Source: Fistulifera solaris (lineage: Eukaryota). From it: 64,000 nt of DNA. Of this stretch, positions 50,671 to 59,583 are shown in pieces. The stretch covers positions 62,001 through 126,000 of the forward strand of contig AP026140.1 in assembly GCA_030295235.1 (NCBI GenBank), read 5' to 3'. The translations under genes were made by a program, and so were the position numbers. Positions within the stretch are counted from its first letter, which is position 1; every line of letters starts with the position of its first letter. Below the pieces are notes generated by a model, which was not told the origin of the DNA, did no database searches, and saw only the letters and a program-made list of their open reading frames with translations.

Positions 50671-50842
50671 ATTGTGTTGTTTGATTGATGTTTATTGGAT
50701 TGTGTTCTTTATTATGGTGTATAAAGGGAACAAAACGAAGAATAATGACGCCGCATAGCACTTCATTGTCATCGACGCGGCGGGGTCTCGTCGCTGTCGT
50801 TCATCTCTGTCGGTCGATGATTGTCGACATTCCATGTGCGTC

Positions 50843-51072
50843 TTTCACCTTCCCAGAAAATCTGGAGAAAGCTGTGGGGTCATGTACCCAGAAGATGTGG
50901 GCGAGTGCTATTTTCACGTACCCAGAAAATGTGGGAGAGTACTATTTTCACGTACCCAGAAAATGTGGGAGAGTGGTATTTTCACCCAGAGGGCGTGTGA
51001 TATTTTTACTTACCCAGAAAATGTGGGGGTGTGCTATTTTCACGCACCCGGAAAATGTGGGAGCGTGCTTTT
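50843..51072. repeat. Minisatellite of about 6 copies of a 34-bp unit (TATTTTCACGTACCCAGAAAATGTGGGAGAGTGC)
   Basis: Direct repeats between the divergent LSM7 and nocturnin-like genes. Confidence 0.9.
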
Positions 51073-51235
51073 CAATAGTCACACGAGGGCGCCTGCAACA
51101 AAATCTTTTTTCACAAAAAGTTGTTGTCGATCTATTCTTTGACATCCTTATTACAAGTACTTGCAGATGTAGTGTCAGTTGTCAGCATCAAGCAAGCTGC
51201 ACTAATATTATCATTCATTCGCTTGTATTTGATGA

Positions 51236-52735
51236 ATGATACGACGACAGAGACTTCCTGCCTTGTTTATAGATTTATGTATCATCGTTTGGTTGCTTCC
51301 CACTACCGGCCATAGTTTCGCTCATCCTCGTCGTCGTTTCTTTGGCTCCTTTCGGTATTACCGACCCTGGTCATTGAATTTGTTTCTTTCCAGTTATCCT
51401 CAAGAAGAAGAAGACAAAGAAAGCTTACAAGAACTACAACAAAAGTTTTCAAAGCCAAGTGCTTCAAAGAATCCTATCACTATTCGATCGAACGCTTGTC
51501 ACAACATGAACAGCTTCACTCCCGTCAAAGATCAATTCGGTCTTCCCGCTTGGCAGGATATATCCGAAAATCGATTCATTCGCATTGAATCGGAAGTTGT
51601 CTCTGATCATGCATTAACTACTACGGAGCAAGTTTGGAAACAAATTCGCAACGTTCGATCGACACAACAAGAATACGGTCCCTCGAATCTTCTTTCTCGG
51701 ACGTGGATCCCATCAACGCCATTGACTCCGACAACAGAAAACACATTTTCGGTGGCGCAATTCAATGCACTGGCTGAAGGGTTGTCTGCGGGGCCCAATG
51801 TCCCGACACCTTTTACGCCGTGCCTCGATGACGATACGCCCTCAAGCAACAACATCAACAGCAATAAGAATCCAGTCGAGATGTATGGAGGATTCACATC
51901 GATTCCTCATCCAGAACTTATCTTGGATTTCGAACTCCGAAAATGGCGTCTCTTGGAAGTTCTTCTGACATCGGATCAAGCCGACGATACAACTGTCAAG
52001 CCCTGTGACCTTTTGGCGGTGGAAGAAATGGATCGATTTTATGGTTTCTTTGCTCCAATGTTACGTCTGTTTGGTTATCATGGCGCCTTTTGTCCCAAAC
52101 GGCAATCTCCGGGCGTGAGTATGGGCTGGTACTCCGATGGTTGTGCCCTGTTCTGGAACCAACAAGTCTTTGAAGTCATCTCACAACGTCATCATGGATA
52201 TTCTGTTGGAAATCAAGTTGCCTTGCATGTTGTATTGAGGCATCAAAGTAGTAATAGATTGCTGGTGGTCGTTGTGACACATTTGAAAGCGAAATGCAGT
52301 GCCGCGAACGAAATGATACGCATGACACAATTACAAGAACTGTTGGTGCAAATAGAAGAGACAATAAAAGACGTCCCATCAAAGGTCCACGATTCCAATC
52401 AAATACCAGTTATTCTTTTGGGTGATTTTAATACGGATCCTCCGGCGACTTTCCCATCACAGGGCGCCTCTTCGTTGAATCAGCTGATAACAGCATCGAA
52501 TGGCTGTTTTCAGTCGCTTTATCCCTTGGACTCGTCAACGCATTATACAACATGGAAGGCACGGGGATCGGAGACAGTCAAGCGCATCATTGACTACATC
52601 TTTTACCGGGGTCCTGTGGAGCCCGTAGCTACCTTGGAAGTTCCTGAAGAAACGGAACTAGAGCCGACCAAACTGCCCGGACTGCGCTATCCTTCCGATC
52701 ACGTACTCATCGCTGGTCGATTTCATTTCCTTTGA
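51236..52735 (+). CDS. Nocturnin/CCR4-like EEP-family phosphatase with an N-terminal targeting peptide
   Basis: QFNALAEGLS, EEMD, DGCALF, THLKA, GDFN, YTTWK.R, IDYIFY and YPSDH. Signal peptide plus HS-FAHP. Confidence 0.88.
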   Translation: MIRRQRLPALFIDLCIIVWLLPTTGHSFAHPRRRFFGSFRYYRPWSLNLFLSSYPQEEEDKESLQELQQKFSKPSASKNPITIRSNACHNMNSFTPVKDQFGLPAWQDISENRFIRIESEVVSDHALTTTEQVWKQIRNVRSTQQEYGPSNLLSRTWIPSTPLTPTTENTFSVAQFNALAEGLSAGPNVPTPFTPCLDDDTPSSNNINSNKNPVEMYGGFTSIPHPELILDFELRKWRLLEVLLTSDQADDTTVKPCDLLAVEEMDRFYGFFAPMLRLFGYHGAFCPKRQSPGVSMGWYSDGCALFWNQQVFEVISQRHHGYSVGNQVALHVVLRHQSSNRLLVVVVTHLKAKCSAANEMIRMTQLQELLVQIEETIKDVPSKVHDSNQIPVILLGDFNTDPPATFPSQGASSLNQLITASNGCFQSLYPLDSSTHYTTWKARGSETVKRIIDYIFYRGPVEPVATLEVPEETELEPTKLPGLRYPSDHVLIAGRFHFL

Positions 52736-53270: not shown

Positions 53271-54248
53271 GGTTAATTGTATCGAAAGGAAAGAAAGGAA
53301 GCAAAGTTGAAATGAATAATGTCACTTCCCTTCCATCATTGCCGCACAATACTCGCAATAACTTTTACCAGTACTTTCGCAAAGCCAAACTACGGTTCAT
53401 GACTGAATGCAGTCGTGGTAAAGTTGGATTACACTTTGGATTTATAGTCAAAACGGAATACACCGATCCGCAAAGAGTTTCGGCATGTGATTATGAGCCA
53501 AAACGACGCTAATGAAGGATACAGGATACTATGAGTCAAAACGACGCTGATAAAGGATGCAATACAACTAAAATAATAAGACGAACGCGAGCGATGACTC
53601 GAGAAGACGAACGGACTATAGACATTGCCGTCATGCACGAAAATTTAGGTGATTGATTATGATGATGATTCAAGTTTTATGGTTGAATGGCAAAGATAAT
53701 TAACCACCTTTTCTAAAAAATCAAAGATAACTTGTAAGTGGGGTGCATAATGATCAACACGTTATTTTTCATGTCGTTGCAACTTTTTAGCAAAGAGACA
53801 AAATAAGTGATGTCGGAAATTCTGTGTGACAGTCGAATGCATGTGACATGTGACATGTGCCAGATACCGTGAAACAACTTTGCTTGTGTATTTAGAGTTT
53901 ACAGCGATACCCAATCGTCCTTTGTGTACGGACAGAAGGAAAGGCGATAATTATGATTATATTTAGTTAGACGATGCAAACCGTAACCGTTTCAAAAAGC
54001 TTAATCAATTTTGCGGACGAATAAAATTCATAGCAAAATCTTCCCTATCTCCGCAAGTACTATCACCTAAAGTGGTGAAGGGGGCCTCCGATTTTGAAAT
54101 TTTAGCCGGTGAATCCGACGAATTGCGAACTGTTACCATCCAATCTAACGAAATCGGTGACATGCTTGTCAATCGCCTCACCATTTCAATCAAAAAATAG
54201 CCCGTTCGCTTGATACCGAGACCATACAAGAAACTACAACCACCAAGA

Positions 54249-55220
54249 ATGCAAGACCAATCACCCCTACTGAGCTTGCGAATGAGGTCGTCGGATTCGC
54301 AGTTTGTTCGGTTCGAAGTCGACCAAGATAGCTCAATGGACCAACTTGCCGTCATGATATCTCAAGATCGAGAATACCGCTGTCGAGACTATTTCGGACG
54401 ACGAAGCGCTGCGAAATCGATGCACACTCAATCACCGACTTCAACGCAGTTGGAGTTATTAGACGATACGCCCGACAGTATCTGCCGAGAGAAAATGGTC
54501 GATTGGAGCTATCGCGTTTGCGATCATTTTCACACCAAGCGCGAAATCGTAGCTTATGCGTTTTCCTTTCTGGATCGTTTCGTCGATCGGTGTCACTGTG
54601 ATCGAAAAGCGTTCAAATTGGCTGCCATGACGGCACTCTACTTGTCGACAAAAATATTCAATCAGCAACAAATGTCACTGGGCAGCATATCGGAGTTGAG
54701 CCGAGGAGAGTTCGCGACTCATCATATTGCGGAGATGGAGAGTATAATTCTGCAAACACTCAATTGGAAGATGAATCCTCCCATTGTACAAGCCTTTATT
54801 CGAGTGTTACTACCGGTGCTGGTCCAGGAAAGGAGTCCGCGCAGTATCCAAAACTTGTGCGACCGCGCCATTTTCTTTGCCGAATTAGCCGTCTTTGATT
54901 ACAGCTTGATTACCGAAGATCGTTACGTGCTAGCGATCGCGTGCATACTGAATGCGGTGGAGAGCATGGACGAGACTCTGTTACAACAGTCCAGTCCTTC
55001 CCAGCTGCTAATGAATTTACAATCTCAACATTGCCTCGATCCCGATATGGAAGCACTGGGACATTGTCAGGGGCGTCTGTGGATACTGTACGGTACTTCC
55101 GCTCAACTCAAAGAAGGTGATATTCTACCACTACACATTCGAAAAGGACTTGAAGTCGAATACTCGGGTGAATCGAAGGGGCACAGCGCTCATTCACCCA
55201 TTGGAGTCGGGCACTATTGA
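54249..55220 (+). CDS. Cyclin (diatom-specific type)
   Basis: Cyclin box CREKMVDWSY.VCDHF...REIV..A.SFLDRF and EME..IL..L.W..NPP. Confidence 0.92.
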   Translation: MQDQSPLLSLRMRSSDSQFVRFEVDQDSSMDQLAVMISQDREYRCRDYFGRRSAAKSMHTQSPTSTQLELLDDTPDSICREKMVDWSYRVCDHFHTKREIVAYAFSFLDRFVDRCHCDRKAFKLAAMTALYLSTKIFNQQQMSLGSISELSRGEFATHHIAEMESIILQTLNWKMNPPIVQAFIRVLLPVLVQERSPRSIQNLCDRAIFFAELAVFDYSLITEDRYVLAIACILNAVESMDETLLQQSSPSQLLMNLQSQHCLDPDMEALGHCQGRLWILYGTSAQLKEGDILPLHIRKGLEVEYSGESKGHSAHSPIGVGHY

Positions 55221-55747: not shown

Positions 55748-57505
55748 ATGATAAAGAAAACAGACTCGTGGACGCTTCCGTCTATTTTCGGCTTCGAAAA
55801 GCGTACTTATCAGTACATTGCGTCCGAATTTCATCCCTTTCATCAGCACGAAGGAAATGTGTTGGCGCATCTTTTCACGACGAGTCTCGGTATTTGGGGA
55901 GCCATTCAGCTCGCGCGGGTTCTTGGTTTCGCATTTTTGCCTGTAGCGTACGGTATACTGGTGGCGGCTACCACTCCGCTGATGACGGCCTTTCTGCACT
56001 CGCTCTTCCTTTACGGCGCCTTTTTTACTTCAGTTCCGCTGGTATTCGGAATGACGTCCGAATGGCAAGTCTGTCTTTCAGCGATTGCCGTAGGATACGG
56101 TCTACAGGATGTAGCGCATTGGGCTTTTCAAGAAAAGACTTATATGCAGAGTTACATGGGAGAAAAGAAGCCTTGGATGTTGATCGTTCATTCGATTTGG
56201 TTGCTTCCGCTGGTGTTGGATAGTATGACCATGCGCTACTGGTTTCTGCCCAAAATTGTCAGTCGGAATCGTAACATTGTAACACAGGTAGCCAGTCGTG
56301 AAGCAGTCGAGAATTTGCGGAAATGGATACACGAAAACGTTCCCGAGACACCGGAAACCACACATGTCTGGCCGCACAAACAGGAAGCCACTTCCCAAGC
56401 AACGGCGGCTTTAGAACATGATCCGGCCATTCTGGAAGGTTTCCGTCGTGTTTTTGCCGCAAAACACTTTGATGTCCGCCCGGTGCAATCCATGAACGAG
56501 ATTTACGTTACGGCTGTTGGGGCCAAGAAAGAAATCAATTCGGATGCGGTATTCTATACTCCGCACACCGATGGGCCGTATTGGTTCTTGCCGTGTGCTT
56601 CCTTGTATCGTGTTTTGGTGGGAGTTACACCCAATCGCATGGTCCGCACTCGTTTTAATTTGCAGCATGAATCACGTGACAAGGTAGTCGATATGTACGA
56701 TGTATTGGGCTTTGACTACAGCCGTGAGTTGCACTGGATCGACCACGTGCCTGGTGCGGTCAACGATGAGCGACGATCTCTGTTGAAGCTGCATTTTATT
56801 GTTTATCCGAAAGGATGGCACTGGTACGGAGATTTATGTGCTACTCTGCAAACGAACTACAATACCTGGGCTCGCAACAACTTTTTGCGCACACTACGAC
56901 CAGAAGGCTGGTACGAATTTGGCTTGGCTTGGTGGATCTGGTTGACGACTTGGACCAATGCGATCTTTGAAGAACACGTCGGATGGAGTAACCTAGTGTA
57001 TTTGCTGGCTAGCTACGCGATGGGAGCGACTCCTTTCTTGATCCTGACTTCATTCCGTCATTATGTCGTCTACATTACGACTTTTGCGTTCCGTGAGCCA
57101 GATGTTGGCCATGGGTATTTGATGCGTGACGCCAAATTGTACAAAACCGTCAGCATGATGCACATTGCTCGTCGAATCTTACCGCTGGTCGCTATGCAGA
57201 ACGATTGGCCGGCCGTTCTGTTGGCGTTCGCTGGATTCGGCACGACGTTGGCGGCGACCGCTCGCTTGGGGATGGTTCGTACGTACTTTGGTACCGAGCT
57301 TGGTTTGGTGAAGCCAATGTGGATTTCCGGATTCCCCTATGGATATATTCCGCATCCCATGATTGTGGGACAGATCTTCGCTTTTTATGTGATTCTAGGA
57401 TGGTTTTGGCCGCGACTCACGCAAGAAGATGTTGCCTTGTTAGTCACTCACATGGGCTTTTATACCACGCACATGCTTCAAGAGATGTTTACCGGTAGCT
57501 ATTGA
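55748..57505 (+). CDS. Multi-domain membrane protein: Mpo1/DUF962-like + putative Fe(II) dioxygenase + PEMT-like domain
   Basis: N-terminal F...H....N...H and GY.LQ..AH..F.EK. Central HTD...H...R. C-terminal TYFG.ELG...GFPY..IPHPM.VG. Confidence 0.8.
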   Translation: MIKKTDSWTLPSIFGFEKRTYQYIASEFHPFHQHEGNVLAHLFTTSLGIWGAIQLARVLGFAFLPVAYGILVAATTPLMTAFLHSLFLYGAFFTSVPLVFGMTSEWQVCLSAIAVGYGLQDVAHWAFQEKTYMQSYMGEKKPWMLIVHSIWLLPLVLDSMTMRYWFLPKIVSRNRNIVTQVASREAVENLRKWIHENVPETPETTHVWPHKQEATSQATAALEHDPAILEGFRRVFAAKHFDVRPVQSMNEIYVTAVGAKKEINSDAVFYTPHTDGPYWFLPCASLYRVLVGVTPNRMVRTRFNLQHESRDKVVDMYDVLGFDYSRELHWIDHVPGAVNDERRSLLKLHFIVYPKGWHWYGDLCATLQTNYNTWARNNFLRTLRPEGWYEFGLAWWIWLTTWTNAIFEEHVGWSNLVYLLASYAMGATPFLILTSFRHYVVYITTFAFREPDVGHGYLMRDAKLYKTVSMMHIARRILPLVAMQNDWPAVLLAFAGFGTTLAATARLGMVRTYFGTELGLVKPMWISGFPYGYIPHPMIVGQIFAFYVILGWFWPRLTQEDVALLVTHMGFYTTHMLQEMFTGSY

Positions 57506-58478: not shown

Positions 58479-59583
58479 ATGAACCCGGCAATGATTGATG
58501 TTGATGATGCGATCGATCGATTGATTGCCATGAGGCACCAAGAGGAAGTCAGTTATTCTTATCGAAAGTACCTTCCTCCGTTTCCTGCTGGATCCTTCGA
58601 TGGAAAATTAAACGTAACATGGCGAGAGAAGATCTGTCAGTGGAGCTATAACGTAGTAGACCAGTAAGTATCTACTTTCAGAGATTAGTTGTCTTCGTTG
58701 ATCGCCGACTTTACTCACATACTAAATCCTCCGATACAGTTTCGAACTATCGAGAGAAGTCGTTGCAGTAAGCATATCAATATTTGATCGCTTTCTAGCG
58801 ACTCAAGGAAACAAGTGCAACGGCGCGCTTGCTCTTTTAACGTCCCTAACGACATTACACATCGCCATCAAGCTCCACGAGAACAAGAAGATCAAGCTCA
58901 CTACTTTGGCAAACTTGAGCCGAGGCCAGTTCGGCCCGGAACATATCGAGGAAATGGAGAGACGAATACTGAATGCTGTCGGCTGGAAAGTTCATCCACC
59001 GACGCACTATTCTTTCATCTCAGACTTTCTGCTGCTTTTGCCTCAGGAAGCCAATCCTGTGGTCCGTAAAGAGTTGTTTGAACTCTCAAGGTACATTTCT
59101 GAGCTCGCTGTTTGCGACTCTTTCTTTGTTGATGTCAACAACTCCACAGTAGCTTTTGCAGCTCTGCTCTGTGTCATGGATGATATCAGTTATTCGAGGC
59201 TATCAGCGGGTTTGCGCGAGAAGATGTTGGTGGACATTTCTCTAAAAGTGGGCTTGAACCACTTTTCGCGCCCCGTTCAGGCTGCTCGTGAGCGTTTGAG
59301 AACAATGTTCATCAACAGCTCAGCGCATACGATGCTCGCGAGCTTCAACCAGAAAATGTACGACGCTACTTCCGATTCGCACTCCTTCGGGAATGCCTCG
59401 ATATCGTCCACTGGATCCAGTTCTCCGTCTCTTCCGAGCAGATCGCGCACCAATTCCTTCGACAGCAAGAGCAGCTATCGTTATTCTCCCTCACCACGAC
59501 GCCACTTTGTTGCCAGCGTCTCGCCTATGCGCCATGGCCGATCCCACATATCTTGCTCCCCCATTATGGCGGGCGTACAATGA
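58479..59583 (+). CDS. Cyclin (diatom-specific type)
   Basis: WREKICQWSYNVVDHFELSREVV.....FDRFL and EMERRIL..V.W..HPPT. Intron 58664-58739. Confidence 0.92.

What the first reader, a model, noticed from the sequence alone, without database searches (positions are those of the whole stretch)
55748..57505. Three-domain membrane enzyme: Mpo1-like + HxD..H..R dioxygenase-like + PEMT-like
Seen: one uninterrupted 585-aa ORF with (i) FHPFHQHEGNVLAHL and GYGLQDVAHWAFQEK, the three-His pattern of DUF962/Mpo1; (ii) a soluble core with HTD, ELHWI and RRSLLK, the 2-His-1-carboxylate plus Arg layout of Fe(II)/2-oxoglutarate oxygenases; (iii) TYFGTELG..GFPYGYIPHPMIVG, the PEMT/ICMT-like methyltransferase signature. 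Known: Mpo1 is an Fe-dependent 2-hydroxy fatty-acid dioxygenase and PEMT methylates lipid head groups. Inference: a single-polypeptide oxidation/methylation line for an unidentified membrane lipid. Betaine-lipid (DGTA/DGCC) or sphingolipid tailoring are testable guesses.
Basis: partly seen in the sequence, partly recalled or inferred. Interest (0 to 1): 0.78.

Follow-up and report, generated by a model that had tools for sequence, protein, structure and literature searches.

The report
Candidate enzyme for algal lipid DGTA
This diatom membrane protein, whose relatives sit next to or are fused with the genes that make the phosphorus-free lipid DGTS, is a strong but untested candidate for the long-missing enzyme that turns DGTS into DGTA, a major membrane lipid of many marine algae.

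Summary
The 585-aa ORF is real, uninterrupted and conserved. Its three parts hold up: an Mpo1-like His-rich membrane domain (profile match 96%), an Fe(II)/2-oxoglutarate oxygenase fold with near-invariant H273-D275-H329-R343, and a PEMT-like domain. The context points to betaine lipids. In 19 of 31 bacterial loci the gene lies beside btaA/btaB-type genes (DGTS synthesis), in several arrangements and separate clades. 28 of those 31 genomes carry btaA, against 17-18% of phylum samples. Three proteins fuse it to a whole BTA1, and the diatom has its own BTA1. Two named carriers, Diacronema lutheri and Diplonema papillatum, are reported DGTA producers. Best reading (about 0.7): the unknown DGTS-to-DGTA enzyme. 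Inferred chemistry: Mpo1-type loss of C1 makes C2 the new carboxyl, the oxygenase joins an N-methyl carbon to C3, and PEMT restores the third methyl. No activity was tested. Against: most giant-virus copies lack two of the domains and BTA genes, and DGTA is not reported from cultured bacteria. The scan reached the same reading earlier on another genome (e1-7563829); mine was noted before I saw it.

The parts
55748..57505 (+). Single-exon ORF, 585 aa, order Mpo1-like / 2OG-Fe(II) oxygenase / membrane linker / PEMT-like; candidate DGTS-to-DGTA enzyme
55799..56242 (+). Mpo1/DUF962-like helical membrane domain (about aa 18-165) with conserved H32, N37, H41, Q120, H124, E129, H148; a probable metal site (inferred)
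56252..56863 (+). Double-stranded beta-helix domain of Fe(II)/2-oxoglutarate oxygenase type (aa 169-372)
56564..56572 (+). H273-x-D275, first two predicted iron ligands
   Evidence: H273 in 154 of 154 and D275 in 153 of 154 rows of the distant-relative set; ligand role by analogy
56732..56734 (+). H329, predicted distal iron ligand
   Evidence: 161 of 161 rows of the distant-relative set
56774..56776 (+). R343, predicted 2-oxoglutarate-binding Arg
   Evidence: 479 of 480 rows; role by analogy
56903..57172 (+). Membrane helices between oxygenase and PEMT core (aa 386-475) with conserved G412, N415, H438, K466
57173..57496 (+). PEMT-like domain (aa 476-583) with G508, YFGxEL, FPY, HPM and E579
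   Evidence: fold search inconclusive

Best explanation
The protein is the step after BTA1 (BtaA/BtaB) in betaine-lipid synthesis: a membrane enzyme that converts DGTS into its isomer DGTA. Shown here: three conserved domains with intact-looking catalytic residues, and repeated physical linkage of orthologs to DGTS-synthesis genes. Inferred: the substrate is DGTS (about 0.85 that it acts in that pathway) and the product is DGTA (about 0.7). Proposed chemistry, inferred only (about 0.4 if DGTA is the product): (1) the 2OG-Fe(II) domain activates an N-methyl C-H and joins that carbon to C3 of the homoserine chain; (2) the Mpo1-like iron site cuts C1-C2 oxidatively, releasing C1 as CO2 and leaving C2 as the new carboxylate with the C2-N bond broken; (3) the PEMT-like domain methylates the resulting dimethylamine back to the trimethylammonium. 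Each domain is used once, and the reported decarboxylation and recarboxylation needs no CO2 fixation. The order of steps 1 and 2 is open.
For: Neighbourhood: 19 of 31 bacterial loci have a btaA-type gene within the flank of up to 6 kb: 16 as btaA-btaB-gene on one strand (Planctomycetota), 1 as gene-btaA-btaB (BD1-7 clade), 2 convergent. These were found with my own profile; 7 of the 19 were checked with Pfam DUF3419 and all 7 matched. 9 of the other 12 genomes hold DUF3419 elsewhere, so 28 of 31. Background: DUF3419 in 46 of 251 genomes of the Planctomycetota sample and 60 of 351 of the phylum sample around Plesiocystis. In the latter the gene is in 5 of 351, all 5 with DUF3419, and 2 of the 3 newly found ones are btaA-btaB-gene runs. 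Family sample around Stieleria: gene in 15 of 301, all 15 with DUF3419. Fusions: P0312, P0315 and P0231 carry the module plus DUF3419 plus a class I methyltransferase in one chain. The 13 linked rows of a 61-row tree are rejected as one clade, p-AU 2e-63. The own genome encodes a BTA1-type protein. Chemotype: carriers named Diacronema lutheri and Diplonema papillatum are reported to make DGTA (PMC8379373 and PMC8611851, passages). Literature: DGTA is assumed to come from DGTS by decarboxylation/recarboxylation, enzyme unknown (PMC10685587, passages; PMC10057378). Mpo1 shortens 2-hydroxy fatty acids by one carbon in one step (PMC10398889, passages). DGTA occurs in marine bacterial size fractions with unknown synthesis (PMC4796936).
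Against: No activity was measured, and context names the pathway, not the product. Giant-virus relatives mostly break the pattern: 77 of 80 viral loci show only the oxygenase part, 3 add Mpo1, none PEMT; 0 of 80 have btaA in the flank; 1 of the 8 viral records that could be searched (of 19 asked) has DUF3419. Only 2 of 80 metagenome loci showed a bta-type neighbour. Three divergent bacterial loci have PEMT and oxygenase parts without Mpo1. 3 of 31 carrier genomes showed no DUF3419 (may be incomplete). In the Stieleria family the background is 217 of 301, so co-occurrence there says little, 16 of the 19 adjacent loci are related Planctomycetota, and the samples overlap with the 31. The three fusions are not rejected as one clade (p-AU 0.29). 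The diatom gene itself lies about 510 kb from BTA1. One paper states DGTA has not been identified in bacteria (PMC10667739). A Pyramimonas carries the gene while a Pyramimonas sp. was listed with DGTS, though that paper assigned isomers by phylogeny (PMC7074452). I saw no lipid data for Fistulifera, Monosiga or Chromera. The C-terminal fold does not separate methyltransferase from reductase.
Confidence: 0.7

Rival explanations
1. It acts on DGTS but makes something other than DGTA: a hydroxylated, shortened or otherwise unrecognised betaine lipid, or it cleaves and recycles the head group.
For: All neighbourhood and fusion evidence fits equally. 2OG-Fe(II) enzymes usually hydroxylate (established knowledge). 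Forms without Mpo1 or without PEMT exist. DGTA is not reported from cultured bacteria.
Against: DGTA is the one known DGTS-derived lipid with a missing enzyme and reported carbon loss. Two named carriers make DGTA, Diplonema with only a minor homoserine isomer. Breakdown would not need a methyltransferase.
Confidence: 0.14
2. It works on acyl chains: the oxygenase 2-hydroxylates a fatty acyl group (PhyH-like), the Mpo1-like domain alpha-oxidises it, and the PEMT-fold domain is a reductase or a separate activity; includes sphingolipid tailoring.
For: PhyH-type structures are among the fold matches. Mpo1 is a fatty-acid enzyme. One relative is fused to a lipase-type hydrolase (P0311). Sterol and steroid reductases match the C-terminal model about as well as ICMT (Z 5.9-6.2).
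Against: It does not explain operons and fusions with btaA/btaB in separate clades. Pfam PEMT is the family matched by all 57 scanned relatives; no reductase family was listed. The genome has separate stand-alone Mpo1-like genes.
Confidence: 0.08
3. It makes DGCC, the third betaine lipid.
For: DGCC synthesis is also unknown, Pavlovales carriers make DGCC too, and one hit is labelled as a dinoflagellate.
Against: T. pseudonana makes DGCC without a BTA-like enzyme (PMC5516115), so linkage to btaA/btaB argues against it.
Confidence: 0.04
4. It is an ordinary phosphatidylethanolamine N-methyltransferase, as databases label it, with passenger domains.
For: UniRef and JGI names of relatives say phospholipid methyltransferase.
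Against: The oxygenase and Mpo1-like residues are as conserved as the PEMT ones, PEMT is lost in viral forms while the oxygenase stays, and the labels are automatic.
Confidence: 0.04

Closest known systems
BtaA/BtaB and fused BTA1 (DGTS synthesis)
   Same: Same pathway by gene context: operons, fusions and co-occurrence.
   Different: No shared domain; this protein has neither DUF3419 nor a class I methyltransferase and would act after them.
Yeast Mpo1 (PF06127, 2-hydroxy fatty acid dioxygenase)
   Same: N-terminal domain is homologous to stand-alone PF06127 proteins and keeps H..N..H and Q..H..E motifs.
   Different: Divergent, below the Pfam cut-off in this protein, fused to two other domains at either end of the chain, with one more conserved His (H148); substrate probably a head group, not a free fatty acid (inferred).
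Fe(II)/2-oxoglutarate oxygenases (prolyl hydroxylases, AsqJ, AndA, PhyH)
   Same: Double-stranded beta-helix with HxD...H and a following Arg.
   Different: 7-17% identity to solved members, no Pfam or NCBIfam family, membrane-anchored, own invariant residues E251, D266, R288, D323, R326, K347, H349; top matches are tied, so no subfamily can be named.
PEMT/Opi3 phospholipid N-methyltransferases (PF04191; ICMT fold)
   Same: C-terminal YFGxEL, FPY, HPM and distal Glu pattern; Pfam PEMT hits across the family.
   Different: Weak score here (19.3 bits against a cut-off of 25); fused; proposed to methylate a betaine-lipid intermediate, not PE.

Membership tests
Fe(II)/2OG oxygenase superfamily | Double-stranded beta-helix fold | tested here: met
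   Model residues 169-372 match 2OG-Fe(II) enzymes, best Z 12.8, rmsd 3.5, 157 aligned; Foldseek E 5.8e-4
Fe(II)/2OG oxygenase superfamily | HxD/E...H triad and a basic residue for 2OG | tested here: met
   H273 154/154, D275 153/154, H329 161/161 among distant relatives; R343 479/480. 3D geometry was not measured.
Fe(II)/2OG oxygenase superfamily | Fe- and 2OG-dependent turnover | not testable with these tools
   Needs an assay
Mpo1-like (PF06127) | Homology to the family | tested here: met
   Profile-profile 96%, E 2.9e-9, with the distant-relative profile (4% with the diatom-only profile); 17 of 57 relatives hit Pfam weakly; Atlas feature hits to clusters with 11-12% PF06127. This protein alone gets no Pfam hit.
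Mpo1-like (PF06127) | Catalytic residues of yeast Mpo1 are kept | tested here: inconclusive
   Conserved H32, H41, Q120, H124, E129 line up with motifs in stand-alone members, but the paper naming the yeast residues was not held, so the match to tested residues is unchecked
Mpo1-like (PF06127) | Alpha-oxidation of a 2-hydroxy acid | not testable with these tools
   Needs an assay
PEMT (PF04191) | Pfam score over the curated cut-off | tested here: not met
   19.3 bits against 25 for this protein; the second copy and many relatives score higher, up to 40.8
PEMT (PF04191) | ICMT/PEMT membrane fold | tested here: inconclusive
   ICMT Z 6.2 (rmsd 4.3, 120 aligned), sterol reductase Z 6.0, SRD5A Z 5.9, tied with unrelated helical proteins up to Z 7.0; no Foldseek match at E<=0.001
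PEMT (PF04191) | SAM-dependent N-methylation of a lipid amine | not testable with these tools
   Needs an assay
Betaine-lipid pathway gene | Linked to and dependent on btaA/btaB | tested here: met
   19 of 31 adjacent, 28 of 31 co-occur, 3 fusions; not met for most viral copies
Betaine-lipid pathway gene | Present in DGTA producers, absent from DGTS-only and DGCC-only eukaryotes | tested here: inconclusive
   Two positive matches; absences could not be tested because no eukaryote genome set is searchable

The most novel reading that the evidence does not exclude
It is the complete DGTA synthase, a single chain that isomerises a lipid head group by an oxidative relay with no described parallel: radical C-C bonding of an N-methyl carbon, Mpo1-type loss of C1 that turns C2 into the new carboxyl, and re-methylation. 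The gene then predicts DGTA in planctomycetes, myxobacteria, a choanoflagellate and cells infected by some giant viruses.
Probability: 0.3. Interest if true: 0.92.

Novelty: new variant of a known kind. Interest (0 to 1): 0.8.

Why it matters
DGTA replaces phospholipids in phosphorus-starved diatoms (PMC5516115) and feeds fatty acids into storage oil (PMC9892843), yet its enzyme has been missing since DGTS was named as precursor in 1992. A named gene makes the question testable with one expression or knockout experiment, offers a marker to predict DGTA from genomes, and gives a candidate source for the unexplained DGTA in marine bacterial fractions (PMC4796936). If the carbon tracking holds, the old decarboxylation-recarboxylation scheme would be replaced by new oxygenase chemistry.

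Tried and rejected
PDB sequence search gave only a chance pilin hit. No match in the phage collection. NCBIfam has no family for the protein. The Atlas structure search with the N-terminal part found nothing above TM 0.42. Fold search of the C-terminal 200 residues was inconclusive. The oxygenase-only tree did not finish its careful search and was used only as a first look. Independent origin of the three BTA1 fusions was not shown. The gene was found in none of 250 sampled Planctomycetota genomes besides the centre, so that sample served only as background. Expression: two runs guessed to be RNA cover parts of this ORF and of the upstream cyclin but not the spacers, a third covers everything like DNA; this is a weak hint only. 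OkaE (recalled as an azetidine-forming enzyme) is among the top Foldseek rows but is tied with unrelated oxygenases and was not counted as support. Window neighbours (cyclins, an LSM protein, an endonuclease/phosphatase) show no lipid cluster. Ten literature searches listed no paper naming a DGTS-to-DGTA enzyme or this domain combination; I saw listings for all and passages of 15 papers, no whole texts and no supplements. The library lacks most subscription journals, including the 2025 review on betaine lipids cited, the 1992 labelling paper and the Mpo1 residue paper. No complex prediction was run, since no binding is claimed.

Full report
Observation. The frame from 55748 to 57505 on the + strand is open for 585 residues and holds every motif quoted. 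The window is eukaryotic: neighbours are cyclins, an LSM protein and an endonuclease/phosphatase, and the closest named protein is Fistulifera solaris FisN_6Lh416 at 96%. The own genome has two copies on different contigs, 100% and 96%. The first homolog search gave 165 hits; the 120 listed are 53-96% identical and the named ones are diatoms.

Anatomy. AlphaFold with 57 sequences gives a confident model (pLDDT 88.7, pTM 0.86): a helical N-terminal part, a beta-rich middle, a helical C-terminal part. The middle (169-372) matches Fe(II)/2-oxoglutarate oxygenases throughout the top of the list (best Z 12.8; Foldseek E 5.8e-4; Atlas TM 0.54-0.62 to PhyH and 2OG-FeII_Oxy clusters), with no Pfam or NCBIfam family of its own. 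Among distant relatives found by protein search, H273 is kept in 154 of 154 rows, D275 in 153 of 154 and H329 in 161 of 161; R343 in 479 of 480 rows overall. Rows are redundant, and the viral, metagenome and bacterial loci were collected with a pattern that contains H329, D323 and R326, so for those residues only the protein-search rows count. The N-terminal part is a divergent Mpo1-like domain: a profile from 50 distant relatives matches 11 stand-alone PF06127 proteins at 96%, E 2.9e-9, while the diatom-only profile gave 4%; H32, H41, Q120, H124, E129 and H148 are kept in 93-99% of distant rows. The C-terminal part hits Pfam PEMT below cut-off here, in 57 of 57 close relatives and up to E 3.2e-10 elsewhere. 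Folded alone (pLDDT 93.8) it matches ICMT, a sterol reductase and SRD5A at Z 5.9-6.2, tied with unrelated helical proteins, so the fold does not settle methyltransferase against reductase.

Family. A profile search of 1.84 billion representatives found 809 proteins at E<=0.001 and listed 150. Among those 150 plus one viral protein, 61 have the order Mpo1-oxygenase-linker-PEMT, 9 have Mpo1 moved behind PEMT, and the rest are partial or oxygenase-centred. Keeping Mpo1 at either end suggests that the parts work together (inference). Named eukaryotic carriers besides diatoms: Chromera velia, Monosiga brevicollis, Prasinococcus, Diacronema lutheri, Pavlovales CCMP2436, Chrysochromulina, Tetraselmis, Pyramimonas, Diplonema papillatum and one sequence labelled Prorocentrum minimum. 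The gene also occurs in 31 bacterial genomes and 117 viral stretches, 80 kept.

Context. Three unnamed proteins of 1179-1231 aa carry the module followed by DUF3419 and a class I methyltransferase, the two parts of BTA1 (DUF3419 is the domain by which BTA1 is recognised in PMC10685587 and PMC7407893, passages). In bacteria, 19 of 31 loci have a btaA-type gene in the flank: 16 as btaA-btaB-gene on one strand in Planctomycetota (one with a broken btaA), 1 as gene-btaA-btaB in the BD1-7 clade, 2 convergent (7 of 19 checked with Pfam, all positive). Nine of the other 12 genomes have DUF3419 elsewhere, giving 28 of 31. Backgrounds are 46 of 251 and 60 of 351 in two phylum samples. In the second the gene is in 5 of 351 genomes, all with DUF3419; two of these were known, and two of the three new ones are btaA-btaB-gene runs. 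In the family sample around Stieleria it is in 15 of 301, all with DUF3419, but the background there is 217 of 301. One metagenome locus has it convergent with a fused BtaB-BtaA gene. The diatom protein is 32% identical over its length to the Rhodopirellula baltica operon gene and 34% to the Diplonema protein. In a tree of 61 hand-picked rows the 13 linked rows are rejected as one clade (p-AU 2e-63; labels were set before that tree was seen), whereas the three fusions are not rejected as one (p-AU 0.29). The gene thus nearly always comes with btaA while btaA mostly comes without it, the pattern expected of an optional downstream step. The diatom has a BTA1-type gene on the same contig, about 510 kb away.

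Results against. Viral copies mostly keep only the oxygenase and following helices (77 of 80), none has btaA nearby, and 1 of 8 searchable records has DUF3419; they may act on host lipid or do something else. Three divergent bacterial loci lack Mpo1. One paper says DGTA has not been identified in bacteria (PMC10667739), though another reports it in marine bacterial fractions with unknown synthesis (PMC4796936). A Pyramimonas was listed with DGTS, by phylogeny-based assignment (PMC7074452). Absence from DGTS-only eukaryotes could not be tested, and I saw no lipid data for Fistulifera.

How it most likely works. DGTA is held to arise from DGTS by decarboxylation and recarboxylation with enzyme and mechanism unknown (PMC10685587; PMC10057378 citing the 1992 Ochromonas work). 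That C1 is lost while C3, C4 and the N-methyls stay is my recall of the 1992 paper, which I could not read. Mpo1 removes one carbon from a 2-hydroxy fatty acid in a single step (PMC10398889), which leaves C2 as the carboxyl. Applied to DGTS this accounts for loss and regain of a carboxyl without CO2 fixation. DGTA then needs a CH2-N on C3. The economical source is an N-methyl carbon joined to C3 by the 2OG-Fe(II) domain, through a ring or a fragmentation and re-addition; oxygenase rearrangements of methylammonium substrates and C-C ring closures are recalled precedents, not checked here. That leaves a dimethylamine, and methylating a lipid dimethylamine to the trimethylammonium is what PEMT does (established knowledge). 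This uses each domain once and predicts exact labelling. Shown: domains, residues, linkage. Inferred: substrate, product, every chemical step. Odds: acts in the DGTS pathway 0.85, makes DGTA 0.7, full mechanism 0.3.

Chemotype check. Diplonema papillatum, a non-photosynthetic euglenozoan, has abundant alanine-type betaine lipids and only a minor homoserine isomer (PMC8611851); Pavlova/Diacronema makes DGTA and DGCC (PMC8379373). These are two matches, not a profile.

Novelty. The parts are of known kinds and databases label relatives as phospholipid methyltransferase or hypothetical. Ten searches of the held library listed no paper that names a DGTA-forming enzyme or this combination; the putative DGTA synthesis gene mentioned in PMC5516115 is, on my reading, the BTA1 homolog, which I did not verify. 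Subscription papers and supplements were not seen and could hold an earlier identification. An earlier report of this scan on another genome (e1-7563829) reached the same reading; my note of it came first, and that report is not counted as support.

Verdict. Real, conserved and probably the missing DGTS-to-DGTA enzyme; untested. New variant of a known kind, interest 0.8.

Noticed in passing
L001:1292-3584: A giant-virus bin carries a permuted relative (oxygenase first, Mpo1-like last, no PEMT) directly followed by a rhodopsin gene (Pfam E 4.9e-15), with a lipocalin gene upstream.
   Followed up: partly
L007:4986-6938: A viral contig with a DNA-polymerase-like gene nearby encodes a complete stand-alone BTA1-type betaine lipid synthase, DUF3419 plus methyltransferase; another giant-virus bin holds DUF3419 as well (L238).
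   Followed up: partly
L008-L087: Many giant-virus contigs keep a form with the oxygenase and following helices only; its substrate is unexplained.
   Followed up: partly
L233:5394-6779, L234:4897-6366, L250:3972-5475: Divergent bacterial subfamily with PEMT before the oxygenase in one frame, or as two convergent genes, and no Mpo1-like part.
   Followed up: partly
P0311: A relative fused at its C-terminus to an alpha/beta hydrolase of the Hydrolase_4 family.
   Followed up: no
family sample around G263: DUF3419 (btaA) is in 217 of 301 sampled genomes of the family of Stieleria, suggesting betaine lipids are common there.
   Followed up: no
L190:4799-5869, L198:5133-6975: Two planctomycete loci show a broken run: btaA and btaB in pieces in one, btaA missing and btaB and the gene shortened in the other.
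   Followed up: no
window 54210-55220 and 58906-59583: The gene is flanked by two cyclin-domain ORFs; no link to lipid metabolism seen.
   Followed up: no
window 50685-51239: The overlapping ORFs here translate with repeated short units, suggesting a tandem repeat upstream of the endonuclease/phosphatase gene.
   Followed up: no
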